Under the pieces are notes generated by a model. It saw nothing but the letters and a program-made list of their open reading frames with translations. It did not search any database and was not told the origin of the DNA. From Eledone cirrhosa (Eukaryota), in assembly GCA_964016885.1 (NCBI GenBank), contig OZ024745.1:16244001-16308000 (forward strand): 64,000 nucleotides of DNA. The letters are read 5' to 3'. The position numbers and the translations under genes were made by a program. Numbering within the stretch: position 1 is the first letter of the stretch; every line of letters starts with the position of its first letter. Below, piece after piece: positions 41,385-62,236 of the stretch.

Positions 41385-41456
<72 letters not shown>
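41385..41456. repeat. (TCTA)n microsatellite 5' of Tx1 copy 1
   Basis: Directly visible. Confidence 0.95.
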
Positions 41457-42281
41457 GAAACTCTAGGCGTAGAGGAGGACGAACTGGCCTGTCTGTTCGG
41501 TAGGACCTTCCGCCCGGGACCAATGGACAACATCCAAAAGTCCCTGGCCTGGCAGTGCTACCGAGGAGCTCTACCAGTTCGAGACGAGCTCTACAGACAC
41601 GAGCGCCCGGGTAGGGACCCTTCGAAAAAGATCTGTCCGAGATGCGGGCGCGACGAGGACACCGTCGCACACGCATTTGTACACTGCCCGGGCGTTACCG
41701 ATCTGTGGGGCTATGTAGAACAACTATTGTCGCGGGTGGGACCAATCCAGTTGACCACCGAGTCCATTGTCATGATCAAATCGCCACCCTCCTTCAAAAA
41801 CGAGGGAGAGGCGGTTTTCCTATGTCTTATGGCTATGGTGAAAGAGGTTATATGGTGGACGAGGTTAAAAGGGCTGAGGTCAGACACCTTTCTCTCCGGC
41901 GAGCAACTGATTCGTTTTTTCAAATATCATTTTGGAAGAAGAATCAGGATGGAGAGAGAGGTGCTGTACTCCAGCAAATTTTATAAAAGGTGGGTGAATA
42001 TGGCAAAGATGGCCCGAGTGGTTGGGCCTTCTTTCTATATAAGCGTGTAGGTTGAGGAAAAAGAGGAAGAGAGGAAGGGAGTACTCACTCTTGGTGCTCC
42101 TGGAGATGATGGTTGTACAGTTTTTCGGGGTGTGTACAACCCCTGTGTAACACCTCCCCCCTATTGGGGATTTAAATTGTTATTTGTTATTGTATTAATA
42201 GTTTTATTTTCATATACCTGTATGTAAACTCCCCATTCGTATTTGTCCCCTTCTTTTGTGCCCTTGTGGCTAATAAAGAAA
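41456..42281 (+). mobile_element. 5'-truncated Tx1-clade LINE copy 1 (diverged subfamily): ORF2 C-terminus with CCHC knuckle and 3' UTR
   Basis: ORF 41523-42050 aligns with the last ~175 aa of ORF 43116-46577 (CPRC..DTVAHAFVHC). Ends ...GGCTAATAAAGAAA then TATCTATCTA. Confidence 0.93.
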
Positions 42282-42293
42282 TTTATCTATCTA

Positions 42294-42555
42294 GCTATTG
42301 TTATTTTATTGTTATTCTATTGTTATTTTATTACGTCCCTTTACGATCTGAGTTCAAATCCCGTCGAGGTTGACTTTGCCTTTCATCATTACGGGGTCGA
42401 TAAAATAAAGTACCAGTAATGCACTGAGTAATTGCTGGCCTTGTGCCTAAAGTAGAAACAGTTATTTTATTAATAGTTTTATTTTCATATACCTGTATGT
42501 AAACTACCTATTTGTATTTGTCCCCTTCTTTTGTGCCCTTGTGATTAATAAAGAA

Positions 42556-42556
<1 letters not shown>
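42294..42556 (+). mobile_element. Tx1-clade copy 2: 3' UTR terminus only, interrupted by a SINE
   Basis: 42468-42556 repeats 42193-42281 and ends AATAAAGAAA followed by (TATC)n. Confidence 0.85.
42334..42460 (+). mobile_element. 5'-truncated SINE with target-site duplication GTTATTTTATTA
   Basis: CTGAGTTCAAATCCC...GACTTTGCCTTTCATC...GGGGTCGATAAAATAAAGTACCAG, very similar to 61838-62236; direct repeats at 42322-42333 and 42461-42472. Confidence 0.85.
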
Positions 42557-42612
<56 letters not shown>

Positions 42613-42625
42613 TTCAGCAAACCCT

Positions 42626-42710
<85 letters not shown>

Positions 42711-42793
42711 TTCAGCAAACCCTTCTATCTATCTATCTATCTATTTCAGCAAACCCTTCTATCTATCTATCTATCTATTTCAGCAAACCCTTC
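42557..42793. repeat. (TCTA)n tract interrupted by four copies of TTTCAGCAAACCCTTC
   Basis: 16-mer at 42612, 42710, 42744 and 42778; the last copy runs into the Tx1 element. Confidence 0.95.
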
Positions 42794-43115
42794 GGTCCAA
42801 ACTGAAGGGCCAAACTTTATAACTGCTGTGGGACTACCTCATTTGAAAATGATAAAAGTCCCAATGCACTTGTACAAAACACTGAAAATAAATTTCACGG
42901 AGGACGTGGGCCCCCCCTGCGTCAAACCAATCAACCGCGTCCTCCTAAAAAATTTCACCCCCCCACCCCACCCAGACACCCACTCAACGACAAACACCCC
43001 AACCCCACAACACACCGATGCCCCTTCACTTCCACAAACCACAACCCCACCCAACAACCCATCCCCAACCAGCATGGAAATTGAGCGGCCCGTTTCCCGG
43101 GACGCAGAGAGGTAA
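42780..43115 (+). CDS. Putative ORF1 C-terminal fragment of the Tx1 element (Pro/Thr-rich)
   Basis: Frame is open from the 5' junction ([23 protein letters not shown]...) to TAA at 43113-43115, 24 nt before the ORF2 ATG. No domain recognised. Confidence 0.5.
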
Positions 43116-43139
43116 GTGCCTTTTCTCTTTACCACCAAC

Positions 43140-46100
43140 ATGGCTGTGCTAAGAGTAGGGTGTCTAAATGCGCGTGGCCTGGGCTCGTCTTGGAAGCAAG
43201 CAATGCTTCTAAATGACCTCAGGTCACAATCTATAAATGTGATGGTTATCTGCGAGGCCCGGATCAGCAGCATCCGACAGCTAGCCCCCACCTTTGACGA
43301 CTTTGAGATGCACGCATCTCTCTGTCAGCCCGGAGGTGGGGGTGGGGTTGTCGTTCTGCTGCAAAAACATATGGGCCTTGCAACACAGATAGTTCACTTG
43401 GACCCAGGGGGTCGACTGGTGGTGCTGGACCTTGGCAGTGGTGAAGGTGGAGCCCTTAGGCTGATAGCCGCATATGCCCCTTTTGGGACAGAGCGGCCCG
43501 ACTTTTTCCAGCGTCTGGAGTCTTTTCTAGGGACGTCCCGTTCCCTGCTTTTAGTGGGGGATTGGAATGGTATCCTGGATGCACGTTGGGACTATGCAGG
43601 GGCATGTCCCGATAGAGAGGGGTGCAACAGCCTCAAGGGGTTACTCGGCCGATTTGACCTGGCCGATAGATTTCGACTAGATTTTCCGACGGTGCCAACC
43701 TGGTCTTGGTCAAATCGCAGCGGATCATCTAGATCGTACCTAGATAGATTTTTAGTTAGAAATAAGGACAGGGACTTTTTAAGTTGTCCAGAAATGCTCA
43801 TGGTTGGCTATTCAGACCACAAGTTGGTGACCTGCATGGTCAACCTTGATAGAACGCATAGACAGGGCCCCGGTTACTGGAAGCTCAACTTGTCCTTGCC
43901 GGCAAGTAGAACCTACAGGAATCGGATTAGTACGTTAGTTAAGGAACGGTTGACTGGAGCGATCGTCAACAGCAGGTGGTGGGTATCTCTAAAGAGAGAG
44001 ATTAGAGTAGTCTCGATTGAATTTAGTAAGGTTCTAGCTGCGGATAGGAATAGGAAGGAAAGGGAGCTAATAGCTAGAGTAGAAGAGGCAATTAGAAGCG
44101 GCGACGTGGCCAGAGTGCTAGCATCGAGAACGGCTTTGAGCCAGTTTTTCGACGCGAAGCACGAAGGCTGCGTTGTCCGAAGTAAAATACGTGCTCTAGG
44201 GAACGAGGGGGCCAAAGCTGTTAGCTGGGCCCGCGTGACAGAGGCCAACAGTGGAACTAAATCCACCATCCGGTCTTTGCGAGACCTGGATGGACGGGCG
44301 ATTCTTGAGCCTAAGCAGATGTGTGAGGCCTTTCAAAGGCACTTTGCCCGACTGTTCGGGAGGGGCGGGGAGCCGGTTGGAAACGTGGACTTCGGTCCAT
44401 ACCTCGACGGCCTGTCGCGCCTCTCGGACAGGGAGGCGAAGTCTTGCGAGGAGCCGATTTCGGCCGCTGAGATAGAAGACGTGCTGGGCCAATGCGGCAA
44501 ACGCAAATCCCCGGGTCTCGATGGTCTTCCTTACGAATTATATCTAGCTATGCCGGACTTGTTCCCCGATCTCCTCGAGGCGGTCTACTGCAACTGGCGA
44601 CAGAACGGGAGAATTCCCTGTACTGTGACCAAGGGCGTAGTCACGCTAGTCAGGAAGGACGAGAATAAGGGGGATGACATAGGCAACTTCCGGTCCATGA
44701 CTCTGCTAAATACAGAGTTACAGCTTTTGGCCAAGGTGCTAGCAAAGAGGTTGGCGCTTGTCGTGGGCAACCTGGTGGGAGATGCGCAGACATGCGCTAT
44801 CCCGTCCAGGTCCATCCATGACATCCTCCACCTCATGCGATACATCATAGAGAGGGTTGGGAACGAACCCGGCTTTGGTGGGGCTCTGATCAACTTGGAT
44901 CAATCTAAGGCGTTCGATAGGGTCGACCATGGTTACCTGGATGCGGTGCTAGCGGCGGCAGGCATCGGACCCGTTTTCAGGGGCTGGATCACTGCTATGC
45001 ACAGCAGCCGCATCTGCTCTAGGGTCAAGGTGAACGGCTACCTCTCGGAGCCGTTCAAAATCGCGCGGTCCATCCGACAAGGGTGCCCTCTCTCCTCCCT
45101 TCTGTATGTGTTGACTCTCGAGCCACTACTGCGGAAGTTGGAGTTGTTGCAGGGCATCCCTATGGAACCGGGATTGCGGAAAGCGGTGTCAGCCTACGCC
45201 GATGATGTGACAGTAATGGTGTCGACGGCCTCCGAAATCGAGGTGGTCGGCACCTTACTGGAGGAGTATGAAAAGTTCACAGGGGCTAAGCTGAACCGGG
45301 ACAAGTCGATCGGTTTGCAACTCGGCACGTGGAGGGGCAGACCGATGCCCTCCGATGGCGTCGTCGGACGCTGGACGGAGGGCCCGGTGAAGTTGCTCGG
45401 GGTCTGGTTCGGACCGGACCTCCAGGTGGAGAAAAACTGGGCGGAGGTTACGAACAGGGTGTTTGCACTGACCCAGAAGTGGGCCAGTTGCAAACTATCC
45501 CTGAAAGGTCGGGCGGAGGTGGCGAACACTTATATAGCGTCCGTCATCTACTACCGCCTGACCGTAGTGCCCTGCCCAAGGGAAACCCTCACCAAGATGG
45601 AGCGCGCGCTCTTCCAATTCCTTTGGAAGGGGCGGGCTCCTATGGTGAGGAGATCCATCTGCTGTCAACACCCTTCGAAAGGAGGGCTGGGGATGCCGTG
45701 GCTAATGATGCGTAAACACGCATTAAGGCTACGGCACCTCTACGTATTCCTCACCGGACAACCGGTGTGGGCCTCGTTTGTGAGACGAACCTTTCCCAGA
45801 CTCGTCTCACTCACCGAGCTGCAATCCTGGGTCAAGCAAAGACCGAGAAAACTGGGCGCCTGGCACACTGAGTGTGCCCAGGCGCTCACCGCCCTCTGGC
45901 AGGCGGATCCGGTTATCAGTGGAGACTCCACCGCAACATTCTATAGAGGGCTGGTACGCAGCAGGTGCGACGACGCCTTCGGAGAAGCCCTAGACATGGA
46001 GGAGGACGAACTGGCCGGCCTGTTCGGTAGGACATTCAGCCCGGGACCTATGGACAACTTCCAGAAGTCCCTGGCCTGGCAGTGCTACCGAGGGGCTTTA

Positions 46101-46577
46101 CCCGTTCGAGAAAGGCTCTACAGACACGGTCGCCCGGGTATGGACCCCGCCAAAAAGATCTGTCCCAGATGCGTGTGCGACGAGGAAACCGTTGCACACG
46201 CATTGGTACACTGCTCGGGCGTAGCCGATCTGTGGGGCTATGTCGAACAACTGCTGTCAAGGGTGGGACCGATCCGGTTGACCACCGAGTCTATTGTAAT
46301 GATCAAGCCGCCTCCCCCCTTCAAAGATGAAGCAGAGGCGGTGTTTCTGTGCGTAATAGCCATGGCGAAAGAGGTTGTATGGTGGACGCGTCTGAAAGGA
46401 CTGAGGTCAGGCACCTTTCTCTCTGGCCAACAACTGGTCCGTTTCTTCCGATATCATTTCGGAAGAAGGATCAGGATGGAGAGAGAGGTGCTGCACCCCA
46501 GTCGTTTTTATGAAAGGTGGGTGAAAGTGGCGAGAATGGCCCGTGTGAATGGGCCTTCTCTTTACATAAGCCTGTAG
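43140..46577 (+). CDS. ORF2 polyprotein: APE endonuclease + reverse transcriptase + CCHC zinc knuckle (1145 aa from ATG 43140)
   Basis: APE: VGCLNARGL, AAYAP, LVGDWNG, SYLDRFLV, SDH. Tx1/L1 linker GPGYWKLN. RT: KSPGLDGLPYELY, LDQSKAFDRVDH, IRQGCPLS, AYADDV. C-terminus CPRC..EETVAHALVHC. No stops or frameshifts. Confidence 0.96.
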   Translation: MAVLRVGCLNARGLGSSWKQAMLLNDLRSQSINVMVICEARISSIRQLAPTFDDFEMHASLCQPGGGGGVVVLLQKHMGLATQIVHLDPGGRLVVLDLGSGEGGALRLIAAYAPFGTERPDFFQRLESFLGTSRSLLLVGDWNGILDARWDYAGACPDREGCNSLKGLLGRFDLADRFRLDFPTVPTWSWSNRSGSSRSYLDRFLVRNKDRDFLSCPEMLMVGYSDHKLVTCMVNLDRTHRQGPGYWKLNLSLPASRTYRNRISTLVKERLTGAIVNSRWWVSLKREIRVVSIEFSKVLAADRNRKERELIARVEEAIRSGDVARVLASRTALSQFFDAKHEGCVVRSKIRALGNEGAKAVSWARVTEANSGTKSTIRSLRDLDGRAILEPKQMCEAFQRHFARLFGRGGEPVGNVDFGPYLDGLSRLSDREAKSCEEPISAAEIEDVLGQCGKRKSPGLDGLPYELYLAMPDLFPDLLEAVYCNWRQNGRIPCTVTKGVVTLVRKDENKGDDIGNFRSMTLLNTELQLLAKVLAKRLALVVGNLVGDAQTCAIPSRSIHDILHLMRYIIERVGNEPGFGGALINLDQSKAFDRVDHGYLDAVLAAAGIGPVFRGWITAMHSSRICSRVKVNGYLSEPFKIARSIRQGCPLSSLLYVLTLEPLLRKLELLQGIPMEPGLRKAVSAYADDVTVMVSTASEIEVVGTLLEEYEKFTGAKLNRDKSIGLQLGTWRGRPMPSDGVVGRWTEGPVKLLGVWFGPDLQVEKNWAEVTNRVFALTQKWASCKLSLKGRAEVANTYIASVIYYRLTVVPCPRETLTKMERALFQFLWKGRAPMVRRSICCQHPSKGGLGMPWLMMRKHALRLRHLYVFLTGQPVWASFVRRTFPRLVSLTELQSWVKQRPRKLGAWHTECAQALTALWQADPVISGDSTATFYRGLVRSRCDDAFGEALDMEEDELAGLFGRTFSPGPMDNFQKSLAWQCYRGALPVRERLYRHGRPGMDPAKKICPRCVCDEETVAHALVHCSGVADLWGYVEQLLSRVGPIRLTTESIVMIKPPPPFKDEAEAVFLCVIAMAKEVVWWTRLKGLRSGTFLSGQQLVRFFRYHFGRRIRMEREVLHPSRFYERWVKVARMARVNGPSLYISL

Positions 46578-46864
46578 GTGGAAAAGAGGAAGGAACGAGG
46601 GAGCACCCCCTCTCTGTGCTCCTGAGGAAAAGGGTTGCACACTTTTTTCGGGGGTGTGTGCGACCCCCCAAGGCGCCTCCTCTCTATTGAGGATTTTGTT
46701 AAAAATTTTATTTTTTGTTATATCTTATTTTATTTTTATATTTTGTTATTGCCTCCTCCTTATTGAGGACGCCTTTTTGTGTAAACTCCCCCCTTTGTAC
46801 TTGTCCCACTTTTGATGCCCTAGTGGCAAATAAAAGAAACTTATCTATCTATTTATCTATCTAT

Positions 46865-47200
46865 CTTTACATGAGCCTGTAGGTGGAAAAGAGGAAGGAA
46901 CGAGGGAGCACCCCCTCTCTGTGCTCCTGAGGAAAAGGGTTGCACACTTTTTTCGGGGGTGTGTGCGACCCCCCAAGGCGCCTCCTCTCTATTGAGGATT
47001 TTGTTATAAATTTTATTTTTTGTTATATTTTATAACAAAATCCTCTACTGAGGATTTTGTTATAATTCTATTTTTTGTTATATTTTATTTTATTTGTATA
47101 TATTGTTATTGCCTCCTCCCTATTGAGGACGCCTTGTTTTGTAAACTCCCCCCATTGTACTTGTCCCACTTTTGATGCCCTTGTGGCAAATAAAAGAAAC
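46865..47200 (+). mobile_element. Tx1-clade copy 4: last codons plus 3' UTR, with an internal fold-back duplication
   Basis: Near-identical to 46560-46840. Preceded by TATC repeats (46841-46864) and followed by (TCTA)n at 47201-47238. Confidence 0.92.
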
Positions 47201-47439
47201 ATATCTATTTATCTATCTATCTATCTATCTATCTATCTGTCTGTCTGTCTGTTTCATGTATACATATTCATGTGTGTATGTGTGTATGTATGAATGTATG
47301 TATGAATGTATGTATGTATGTGTTCTTAGTATTTGGTATAAATGGAGAGATAAATATTTAACCATATACAGCGATCAACAGAGAGATCAGTTAATAGATA
47401 GCTATATGAATAGAAAATACATACATATACACGCACTTA

Positions 47440-50041: not shown

Positions 50042-52408
50042 GATCGAGTATCGAAAAATCGGCGCACGAGTTCACAATAAACAATATTCGAAATGAGCGG
50101 CAGAGGGCTCAATAATTCAGATGAATCAGAGCTATAACTATCGTTAAAATACCGTCACACATAGAACAAGTCTAAAATCAACCATACGATAAAAAATCGA
50201 TAATAGAAGATTCGGGACAATCAGATAAAAAATATCAATAAAACAATACATCAATAATTTAAATGAATGTAAAATCATACCCGGACCCACTAGAAAGGTG
50301 TTAAATCTAGCTTCTTGGGTTTCTGTAAATCCTTAGACTGTACTCTATCAGCTCACATATAAATATATAAGACTTCTAGAGCAAGCGGAATGGAAGTTTA
50401 CTTCACCAACGAGCTTTTTCCTAGCGGATAAGAGGCTAACTACAAGCGAAATACGCACATGGAATCCGGCAAGGGAGATAACCTCTACATCCGCGAAAAC
50501 TATTCGAGGAAATGTGGAAATACACATATCGAATAAGAGTGCTCAATAGACATGTTAAAATAAAACAGGAGCTATTCATCACTCAATAGAATCGACAAAA
50601 AATGAGCAATAAAATTAACTGGTGGATAGCTATGTCCAGAGCTAAAAATATTAGAAAGATCGAGTATCGAAAAATCGGCGCACGAGTTCACGATAAACAA
50701 TATTCGAAATGAGCGGCAGAAGACTCAATAATTCAGATGAATCAGAGCTATAACTATCGTTAAAATACCGTCACACATAGAACAAGTCTAAAATCAACCA
50801 TACGATAAAAAAATCGATAATAGAAGATTCGGGACAATCAGATAAAAAATATCAATAAAACAATACATCAATAATTTAAATGAATGTAAAATCATACCCG
50901 GACCCACTAGAAAGGTGTTAAATCTAGCTTCTTGGGTTTCTGTAAATCCTTAGACTGTACTCTATCAGCTCACATATAAATATATAAGACTTCTAGAGCA
51001 AGCGGAATGGAAGTTTACTTCATCAACGAGCTTTTTCCTAGCGGATAAGAGGCTAACTACAAGCGAAATACGCACATGGAATCCGGCAAGGGAGATAACC
51101 TCTACATCCGCGAAAACTATTCGAGGAAATGTGGAAATACACATATCGAATAAGAGTGCTCAATAGACATGTTAAAATAAAACAGGAGCTATTCATCACT
51201 CAATAGAATCGACAAAAAATGAGCAATAAAATTAACTGGTGGATAGCTATGTCCAGAGCTAAAAATATTAGAAAGATCGAATATCGAAAAATCGGCGCAC
51301 GAGTTCATGATAAACAATATTCGAAATGAGCGGCAGAGGGCTCAATAATTCAGATGAATCAGAGCTATAACTATCGTTAAAATACCGTCACACATAGAAC
51401 AAGTCTAAAATCAACCATACGATAAAAAATCGATAATAGAAGATTCGGAACAATCAGATAAAAAATATCAATAAAACAATACATCAATAATTTAAATGAA
51501 TGTAAAATCATACCCGGACCGACTAGAAAGGTGTTAAATCTAGCTTCTTGGGTTTCTGTAAATCCTTAGACTGTACTCTATCAGCTCACATATAAATATA
51601 TAAGACTTCTAGAGCAAGCGGAATGGAAGTTTACTTCATCAACGAGCTTTTTCCTAGCGGATAAGAGGCTAACTACAAGCGAAATACGCACATGGAATCC
51701 GGCAAGGGAGATAACCTCTACATCCGCGAAAACTATTCGAGGAAATGTGGAAATACACATATCGAATAAGAGTGCTCAATAGACATGTTAAAATAAAACA
51801 GGAGCTATTCATCACTCAATAGAATCGACAAAAAATGAGCAATAAAATTAACTGGTGGATAGCTATGTCCAGAGCTAAAAATATTAGAAAGATCGAGTAT
51901 CGAAAAATCGGCGCACGAGTTCACGATAAACAATATTCGAAATGAGCGGCAGAGGGCTCAATAATTCAGATGAATCAGAGCTATAACTATCGTTAAAATA
52001 CCGTCACACATAGAACAAGTCTAAAATCAACCATACGATAAAAAATCGATAATAGAAGATTCGGGACAATCAGATAAAAAATATCAATAAAACAATACAT
52101 CAATAATTTAAATGAATGTAAAATCATACCCGGACCCACTAGAAAGGTATTAAATCTAGCTTCTTGGGTTTCTGTAAATCCTTAGACTGTACTCTATCAG
52201 CTCACATATAAATATATAAGACTTCTAGAGCAAGCGGAATGGAAGTTTACTTCATCAACGAGCTTTTTCCTAGCGGATAAGAGGCTAACTACAAGCGAAA
52301 TACGCACATGGAATCCGGCAAGGGAGATAACCTCTACATCCGCGAAAACTATTCGAGGAAATGTGGAAATACACATATCGAATAAGAGTGCTCAATAGAC
52401 ATGTTAAA

Positions 52409-61199: not shown

Positions 61200-61607
61200 T
61201 CACTGTCACAAATGGATAGATAGATAACTTCTCTGGTATAAGTGGGTTTCTATCTATTTCCCATACACAACCGATTAGCTCAGAGTTTTACTGGCTTAAC
61301 CAGGTGTCTAGCTATATTAAGTGGCGCAATCATATGTTCAGCTACCTACACTGGCACAACCGGGTGTATGTAACTATCTTCACAGGTACAACCAGGTGTC
61401 TAGCTATTTTCTCAGGTACAACCGACCGGGTGGCTGATTATTTTCACAGGCACAATCGCGTGTCTAGCTATCTTCGCAGGCAAAACCAGGTGTCTAGGTT
61501 TCTCCACTGACTCTACCAGGTGGGTAGATATTTAAACTGACACAACCAGATGTTTACCTATCTTAACTGATACGACACAGTAGCTGATTACCTTCGCTGG
61601 CACAACC
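61200..61607. repeat. ~30-bp degenerate minisatellite (AACCAGGTGTCTAGCTATCTTCACTGGCAC-like)
   Basis: About 10 or more diverged units visible, clearest from 61298. Confidence 0.75.
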
Positions 61608-61837: not shown

Positions 61838-62236
61838 TTGGCAGTATCGGTAGAGAGTCGGACGCCATGCTTTCCAGCATAGTTACGTCCCTTTACGGTC
61901 TGAGTTCAAATCCCGCCGAGGTTAACTTTGCCTTTCATCCTTACGGGGTCGATAAAATAAAGTACCAGTAATGTACTGGGTAATTGCTGGCCTTGTGCCA
62001 AAAGTAGAAACAATTATTTCGAAGTTAAAAGGTGGTGGATTGGCAGTATCGGTAGAGGGTCTGACGCCATGCTTTGAAGCAAAGAGTTACGGCCCTTTAC
62101 GGTCTGAGTTCAAATCCCACCGAGGTTCACTTTGCCTTTCATCCTTACGGGGTCGATAAAATAAAGTACCAGTAATACACTGGGATAATTGCTGGCCTTG
62201 TACCAAAAGTAGAAACAATTATTTCGAAGTTAAAAG
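61838..62236 (+). mobile_element. Tandem dimer of a tRNA-derived SINE (period 202 bp)
   Basis: TTGGCAGTATCGGTAGAG at 61838 and 62040; each copy has GAGTTCAAATCC and the family tail. Confidence 0.88.

What the first reader, a model, noticed from the sequence alone, without database searches (positions are those of the whole stretch)
41385..47238. Candidate (TCTA/GATA)n microsatellite-targeting Tx1-clade retrotransposon: four head-to-tail insertions, each bounded by TCTA repeats
Seen: four copies (41456, 42294, 42778, 46865) of at least two diverged subfamilies, all on the + strand, each with a different 5' truncation point. Every 5' and 3' junction meets (TCTA)n, with no poly(A) tail. I saw no long TCTA tract elsewhere in the window despite abundant TA/CA repeats. 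Known: the Tx1 clade includes sequence-specific families such as Kibi on (TC)n and Koshi on (TTC)n, with specificity attributed to the APE domain. Inference: this family repeatedly and directionally inserts into (TCTA)n, building a nested landing pad. I do not recall a described TCTA-specific Tx1 family but cannot verify novelty.
Basis: partly seen in the sequence, partly recalled or inferred. Interest (0 to 1): 0.85.

Follow-up and report, generated by a model that had tools for sequence, protein, structure and literature searches.

The report
Retrotransposon family that targets GATA repeats
A young, high-copy family of LINE retrotransposons in this animal genome sits in (TATC)n/GATA microsatellites thousands of times more often than chance, in one orientation and often stacked in tandem, likely because its endonuclease cuts the short motif T/ATCT; microsatellite targeting is known for related elements, but this target was not found in the papers searched.

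Summary
The four head-to-tail copies are real, and the repeat is the target, not a tail. A variant unit (ATTT) is duplicated on both sides of copies 3 and 4, which marks 12- and 20-nt target-site duplications. Genome-wide, 158 of 358 ends of the young subfamily and 4,416 of 10,036 ends of related subfamilies (both 44%) are followed by (ATCT)3, about 7,300-fold over background. Of 93 young copies read at both ends, 39 have the repeat on both sides and 3 fit a tail-only model. Specificity is strong but not strict: 89 of 93 ends abut ATCT or ATAT, 8 lie in (TA)n, and many sit in other sequence with 7-30-nt duplications after an invariant T. The motif is therefore T/AT(C/A)T, and (TATC)n is its best carrier. 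Several related families share the target, and 21 of 30 sampled long tracts adjoin a copy. The architecture is L1-group (APE, RT, zinc finger; CCHC ORF1). The best-scoring named relatives are fish Tx1-type proteins, but the tree does not settle Tx1 membership (support 57). Verdict: a new target variant of a known kind; endonuclease cause inferred; Repbase not checked.

The parts
41385..41456 (+). (TCTA)18 tract, 5' flank of copy 1
41456..42284 (+). Copy 1: 5'-truncated, ORF2 C-terminus (zinc finger, stop at 42050) plus 3' UTR; member of the large related subfamily
   Evidence: 80.8% identical to copy 3; its 3' end fits the pattern counted 10,036 times
42285..42293 (+). Short ATCTATCTA spacer between copies 1 and 2
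42294..42558 (+). Copy 2: 3' UTR only, same subfamily as copy 1, interrupted
   Evidence: 98 nt at 94% to copy 1
42333..42460 (.). Unrelated high-copy interspersed repeat (SINE-like, label recalled) inserted into copy 2, flanked by an 11-nt duplication at 42322 and 42461
   Evidence: 91-94% matches at 61883-62019 and 62087-62224; duplication; highest contig depth of the stretch; no Rfam match
42559..42777 (+). (TATC)n tracts of 13, 21, 5 and 5 units, separated by three extra copies of the 16-nt 5' junction stub of copy 3
42769..42780 (+). Left target-site duplication of copy 3 (12 nt, ends in the ATTT variant unit, which is also a 4-nt microhomology with the element)
   Evidence: same 12-mer at 46843-46854; native context printed
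42778..46842 (+). Copy 3: young subfamily, truncated within ORF1; ORF1 C-terminal part, ORF2 and 265-nt 3' UTR; no tail
43140..46577 (+). ORF2, 1,145 aa: APE endonuclease (27-227), RT (511-755, YADD at 686), C-terminal zinc finger (C1008-C1025)
46843..46866 (+). Spacer holding the right duplication of copy 3 (46843-46854) and the left duplication of copy 4 (46847-46866)
46864..47202 (+). Copy 4: last codons of ORF2 plus 3' UTR, with an internal inverted duplication near 47020-47065
47203..47250 (+). Right duplication of copy 4 (47203-47222, with the ATTT variant), running into (TATC)n and (TGTC)n

Best explanation
This is a recently multiplied, tailless L1-group LINE lineage, probably Tx1-type, whose copies insert in a fixed orientation at T/AT(C/A)T, overwhelmingly inside (TATC)n, likely because its APE endonuclease nicks the (TAGA)n strand at a T-A step and primes reverse transcription there. 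Shown: the element ends at a fixed 3' base and abuts target DNA directly; the target is duplicated (median 13-15 nt); 5' ends are variably truncated, in copies 3 and 4 at short microhomology; and copies of several related families pile up head to tail. Inferred: a first nick at 5'-AGAT/A-3' on the purine-rich strand (uncertain by one base, because both element and target have T there), a second nick about 13 nt away, and a feedback in which each insertion duplicates and so renews the target on both sides.
For: Variant-marked duplications around copies 3 and 4. 158 of 358 and 4,416 of 10,036 ends are followed by (ATCT)3, against a background of 6.0e-5 per strand position. (AT)6 follows 20 of 358 ends, although such sites were 6,078 against 11 in a 199.8-kb sample. 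93 copies: first four bases ATCT 73, ATAT 16, ATCA 3, ACCT 1; TATC run at the 5' side 48, 3' side 45, both 39; GATA orientation at the 3' side 0 of 93. 24 copies with non-periodic duplications of 7-30 nt: T at -1, A at +1 and T at +2 in 24 of 24, with nothing between element end and duplication. A relative's 3' end lies within 200 nt upstream in 20 of 93, all on the same strand, against 0 in the background sample. A relative lies within 1.5 kb downstream at 20 of 56 sites, 19 in the same orientation. 21 of 30 long tracts adjoin a relative. The APE catalytic motifs are present. Precedent for endonuclease-driven specificity in Tx1L and L1: PMC1950540 and PMC4494074 (passages).
Against: Only 44% of ends have three perfect units, so this is a preference and not strict specificity. 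3 of 93 copies (L040, L043, L097) have a TATC run at the 3' side only with no duplication found. Several others (L041, L066, L081, L082, L088, L098) show no duplication at the 5' junction. One downstream neighbour (L002) is inverted, and L140 is head to head. No biochemical test was done, and pairing of a read-through RNA end with the target is not excluded. The tree joins this lineage to Tx1-labelled fish proteins at only 57.
Confidence: 0.8

Rival explanations
1. Targeting comes mainly from RNA-DNA pairing: transcripts run on into the donor's downstream (AUCU)n, and only nicks whose 3' end pairs with that RNA end are extended; the endonuclease is a loose T-A cutter.
For: The invariant bases (-1 to +4, TAT(C/A)T) all lie where the primer could pair if the nick is one base further along, and the preference fades with distance. 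3 of 93 copies have the repeat at the 3' side only.
Against: In the 24 copies with readable duplications no extra units lie between element and target. 16 of 93 ends start ATAT, and 8 lie wholly in (TA)n with no ATCT added. Position -2 is a pyrimidine in 20 of 24 (weak, since part of these sites are repeat-derived).
Confidence: 0.15
2. (TATC)n is a self-templated 3' tail, as in some CR1/L2/RTE elements, and the 5' repeats are tails of older neighbours.
For: 45 of 93 copies have the repeat at the 3' end, and 20 of 93 have an upstream neighbour.
Against: 48 of 93 have it at the 5' side, more than the 20 with an upstream neighbour. Copies in non-TATC sites carry no tail, and variant units are duplicated across the element.
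Confidence: 0.03
3. Insertion is near random at short motifs, and the association arises afterwards through tract growth from duplicated sites, or through selective survival.
For: Duplication plus slippage can lengthen a tract, so tract length and the 21 of 30 occupancy may be partly a product of insertion.
Against: The young copies are a median 99.2% identical to the nearest reference copy, which leaves little time. ATCT as a 4-mer is ten times rarer than ATAT in the sample (1,477 against 14,828), yet it is used 73 against 16 times. The share is 44% in both the young and the larger subfamily set.
Confidence: 0.02

Closest known systems
Kibi (TC)n and Koshi (TTC)n, teleost Tx1-clade elements; crocodilian Tx1 families on (TTCC)n/(TTTC)n (PMC4494074, PMC3812793, passages)
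   Same: APE-type LINE that prefers a microsatellite; pyrimidine-rich strand on the element's sense strand here. It passes the 20%-of-flanks criterion that PMC4494074 uses for calling a family target-specific (44%).
   Different: The target is (TATC)n, with a core T/AT(C/A)T that also admits (TA)n and unique sites. RT identity to the fish Tx1-labelled proteins is only 33-39%, and the element is not nested among them.
Tx1L of Xenopus (PMC1950540, passages)
   Same: L1-group ORF2 with an APE domain, which in Tx1L is shown to nick its target specifically.
   Different: Tx1L targets one site in a DNA transposon; this family uses a short motif at thousands of dispersed sites.
Human LINE-1 (5'-TTTT/AA-3' consensus, PMC1950540; ORF2 structures)
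   Same: Same ORF2 domain order; short, relaxed consensus; inferred nick at a T-A step; variable duplications and 5' truncation.
   Different: No poly(A) tail; ORF1 has a CCHC knuckle and no Transposase_22 hit; ORF2 scores 151 bits against 325 for the best Tx1-type protein.
Waldo (ACAY, AC), Mino (AC) and Dong (TAA) microsatellite-targeting elements (PMC3812793, passage)
   Same: Microsatellite as landing site; Waldo also uses a tetranucleotide.
   Different: Different repeats; they belong to other clades (R1 for Waldo and Mino, R4 for Dong; clade labels recalled).

Membership tests
L1 group of APE-type non-LTR retrotransposons | ORF2 with N-terminal APE, RT and C-terminal zinc finger, no RNase H | tested here: met
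   Pfam Exo_endo_phos, RVT_1, and zf-RVT (below its cut-off); no other family listed; human L1 ORF2 is the best PDB match over residues 7-857
L1 group of APE-type non-LTR retrotransposons | Two ORFs, 5' truncation and target-site duplications | tested here: met
   Full-length copies of 5.7-5.8 kb with ORF1 of 591-618 aa and ORF2 of 1,145 aa; 12 of 93 have both ORFs open; duplications of 7-30 nt
Tx1 clade | RT groups with reference Tx1 elements to the exclusion of L1 | tested here: inconclusive
   SH-aLRT 57 for the node joining this lineage to Tx1-labelled fish proteins; no vertebrate L1 and no Repbase reference in the tree; root arbitrary. Similarity favours Tx1-type: 222-325 bits against 151 (human L1) and 88-213 (plant proteins).
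Tx1 clade | ORF1 with a CCHC zinc knuckle rather than Transposase_22 (PMC5203782, passages) | tested here: met
   One CX2CX4HX4C motif, zf-CCHC E=0.0034 (below the curated cut-off), no Transposase_22 hit; not exclusive to Tx1
Target-specific Tx1 families (criterion of PMC4494074) | One repeat type in more than 20% of flanks | tested here: met
   44% genome-wide at the 3' side; 54 of 93 on either side
Kibi / Koshi | Insertion into (TC)n or (TTC)n | tested here: not met
   92 of 93 ends are followed by AT, none by TC or TTC repeats
Kibi / Koshi | Nested within the fish microsatellite-targeting lineage | tested here: not met
   The fish group (support 99.9) excludes P0001; that BAC82603/05/06/09 are the Kibi/Koshi deposits is recalled, not shown by a call
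Target-specific Tx1 families | The endonuclease itself nicks the target specifically | not testable with these tools
   Needs an in vitro nicking assay

The most novel reading that the evidence does not exclude
An undescribed, still-active radiation of Tx1-type LINEs, separate from Kibi and Koshi, evolved GATA-repeat targeting independently. With more than 10,000 copies in several families it occupies most long (TATC)n tracts of the genome and renews them by target duplication, so that element and microsatellite sustain each other; its APE domain would be a new natural short-repeat nickase with many intact copies to compare.
Probability: 0.5. Interest if true: 0.6.

Novelty: new variant of a known kind. 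Interest (0 to 1): 0.45.

Why it matters
It adds a target to the short list of microsatellite-seeking APE retrotransposons, whose mechanism a review calls not well understood (PMC3812793, passage). Because the family is young, numerous and leaky, its off-repeat insertions define the cut motif directly, which strictly specific families cannot do. It sits between promiscuous L1 and strict Tx1L and is a good case for asking how much specificity comes from the endonuclease loop and how much from RNA-target pairing. If most long GATA tracts here adjoin a copy, that microsatellite's landscape is shaped by a retrotransposon, and GATA markers in this taxon would often have multicopy flanks.

Tried and rejected
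Tail hypothesis: rejected. Strict (TCTA)n specificity: rejected. Stub duplication at the 5' junction as a family trait: one hit in 93 copies (L131), explained by an interrupting insertion, so the window's stubs are local. Expression: no RNA holder listed, which is no evidence either way. Contigs of four coded runs gave no piece spanning the cluster and no empty-site joint among the rows shown; repeats were skipped. The ESM Atlas gave only generic APE/RT clusters. Protein searches gave no Tx1-named hits, seeded with a distant hit, did. The first tree run was killed; FastTree (before the named references) and IQ-TREE replaced it. Rfam found nothing for the repeat inside copy 2. Earlier findings of this scan: none returned. 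Literature searches listed no paper reporting a (TATC)n/(GATA)n-targeting Tx1 or L1 family. Not held: Kojima and Fujiwara 2004, Christensen 2000 and the Microbiology Spectrum review. Figure 3 and the supplements of PMC4494074, which list known Tx1 targets, could not be seen, and Repbase and Dfam could not be searched; these may bear on novelty.

Full report
Observation. The window holds four + strand pieces of one LINE lineage at 41456-42284, 42294-42558, 42778-46842 and 46864-47202, separated and bounded by (TATC)n, with no poly(A) tail. TCTA runs of three or more units occur only here, apart from one 3-unit run on the other strand at 61215. Copies 1 and 2 form one subfamily and copies 3 and 4 another (88 of 96 matching columns within pairs, 60-66 of 114-115 across). 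Copy 3 carries an open 1,145-aa ORF2 with APE, RT and zinc-finger domains.

The window itself shows that the repeat is target DNA. One variant unit, ATTT, marks it. The 12-mer ending in this unit stands at copy 3's 5' junction (42769) and right after its 3' end (46843). A 20-mer containing it stands before copy 4 (46847) and after it (47203). These are target-site duplications: copies 3 and 4 entered the same tract one unit apart. The order cannot be read. Copy 3's truncation point shares four bases with the target unit, and copy 4's shares about three.

Genome-wide counts (3.0 Gb). The exact 26-nt end of the young subfamily occurs 358 times; 158 are followed by (ATCT)3 and 20 by (AT)6. A degenerate end of the related subfamilies, which fits copy 1, occurs 10,036 times; 4,416 are followed by (ATCT)3. 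(ATCT)3 starts at 362,315 of about 6.0 billion strand positions, so both 44% shares are about 7,300-fold enriched; the background includes the occupied tracts. (AT)6 is enriched about 3.7-fold against 20 evenly spaced 10-kb stretches, a rough figure because one stretch holds 211 of 439 TA tracts.

Both junctions. I read 93 young copies: all 59 listed on contig C1 and 34 of the first 41 listed on C2 (seven were not fetched). The four bases after the element are ATCT in 73, ATAT in 16, ATCA in 3 and ACCT in 1. After setting the true 5' end for two interrupted copies (L044, L131) and keeping one internally deleted copy whole (L068), a TATC run of 12 nt or more lies within 30 nt of the 5' junction in 48, the 3' junction in 45, both in 39 and either in 54. 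Eight lie in (TA)n on both sides, and none has GATA after its 3' end. Six have the run at the 3' side only: two have degenerate repeats upstream (L084, L106), one faces an inverted full-length relative (L140), and three have unique 5' flanks with no duplication found (L040, L043, L097). In 24 copies the duplication is non-periodic and at least 7 nt: range 7-30, median 13-15; about six of these lie in minisatellites, where the length is uncertain. All 24 have T before the duplication and AT at its start; C or A follows (19 and 5), then T (22). No extra bases lie between element end and duplication, so there is no obligate tail. The first 30 copies of the larger subfamily set (pattern,387 matches) show the same kinds of 3' flank by eye (not tabulated).

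Clustering. A relative's 3' end lies within 200 nt upstream of 20 of 93 copies, always on the same strand, against 0 matches in 199.8 kb of background. Of 56 distinct sites with 1.5 kb downstream, 20 have a relative, 19 in the same orientation. Several of these neighbours have other 5' UTRs and ORF1 only 38-62% identical, so several families share the target. From the tract side, 21 of the first 30 of 9,091 tract ends with six or more units adjoin a family member within 150 nt. This sample comes from the first 27 Mb of C1 and one tract phase, and some loci are neighbours, so it is indicative only.

Element. Full-length copies are 5.7-5.8 kb with an ORF1 of 591-618 aa holding one CCHC knuckle, and there are two 5' types on a near-identical 3' part. 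Of 93 copies, 21 reach the 5' end, 23 have an open ORF2 and 12 have both ORFs open; median identity to the nearer reference copy is 99.2%. Recent activity follows from this; present activity is inferred.

Mechanism. Most likely (0.8) the APE nicks the (TAGA)n strand at AGAT/A, a T-A step as in L1. Reverse transcription starts at the element's fixed 3' end without a tail, and a second nick about 13 nt away gives the duplication. The position is uncertain by one base. (TATC)n presents the motif every four bases and best fits the weaker preferences further out, while (TA)n is a poor but abundant substitute. Each insertion leaves target on both sides, so later copies stack head to tail. The nick, its cause and the feedback are inferred. 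The main rival (0.15) is selection of nicks by pairing with a read-through (AUCU)n RNA end; the tailless off-repeat and (TA)n insertions speak against its being required but do not exclude a contribution. The three stubs before copy 3 probably arose by slippage or template switching between the stub's final TC and the tract, then unequal exchange (inference). No other copy among 93 shows this, and an assembly error was not excluded.

Comparison. PMC4494074 (passages and section 15) lists Tx1 targets: Tx1D, U2, U5, 5S, satellites, transposons, (TC)n, (TTC)n, (TTCC)n and (TTTC)n; the text has no occurrence of TCTA or GATA, but its figure labels and supplements were not visible. PMC3812793 (passages) lists ACAY, AC, TC, TTC and TAA. 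PMC1950540 (passages) shows specific nicking by the Tx1L endonuclease and a role for the hairpin loop. PMC13282606, PMC10294476 and PMC8967140 (passages) record L1-Tx1 families in molluscs, including recently active ones in an octopus, with no target statement in the passages seen. PMC5203782, PMC4640811 and PMC8869645 were seen as passages. ORF2's nearest hits are unnamed (68% and 37-44% identity). Among named proteins, fish pol-like and TX1-labelled ones score 222-325 bits, against 151 for human L1 and 88-213 for plant proteins. In the RT tree (40 selected sequences out of all the hits, 355 columns) the element forms its own group (99.9), is excluded from the fish group (99.9) and joins it only at 57; no vertebrate L1 was available. 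It works like Kibi and Koshi, is not one of them, and is probably but not provably Tx1.

Verdict. It is a new target variant of a known kind, with novelty limited by the unsearched Repbase. Interest 0.45.

Noticed in passing
window 4-32797: A 20-bp satellite of about 1,647 copies (88% matches) fills the first half of the window.
   Followed up: no
window 50220-52106: The same short repeats recur at spacings of about 616-617 bp, which suggests a tandem array of about four units.
   Followed up: no
window 42333-42460, 61883-62019, 62087-62224; L037 near 1900-1950: A very high-copy SINE-like repeat; one copy interrupts copy 2, and in L037 its end runs directly into (TATC)n. Whether it shares the target or was merely followed by a tract was not tested.
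   Followed up: partly
window 42612-42793: Four copies of the 16-nt 5' junction stub of copy 3, separated by 21, 5 and 5 TATC units; not seen in 93 other copies.
   Followed up: partly
window 47020-47065: Copy 4 has an internal inverted duplication that forms a hairpin in the 3' UTR.
   Followed up: no
L031, L037, L041 versus L036, L040, L049: Two 5' types (different 5' UTR and ORF1) share a near-identical ORF2 3' part and 3' UTR, which suggests recombination or 5' replacement.
   Followed up: partly
L012, L023, L025, L028, L056, L058, L061, L069 (downstream of the young copy): 5' ends of further related families begin right after (TATC)n; the L056 type recurs at 99.5% or more in four other loci among the 30 tract loci, so it is another very young family.
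   Followed up: partly
L090, L111, L117: Full-length copies carry a few extra CT-rich or CTAT bases between the duplication and the 5' end, possibly a co-transcribed leader or slippage.
   Followed up: no
L140: A full-length minus-strand copy and a truncated plus-strand copy lie head to head across a (GATA)n run.
   Followed up: no
window 45400-46842, runs X1-X6: Contigs of four coded organisms hold 56-82% of the sampled words, so close relatives of the young subfamily occur beyond one data set.
   Followed up: partly
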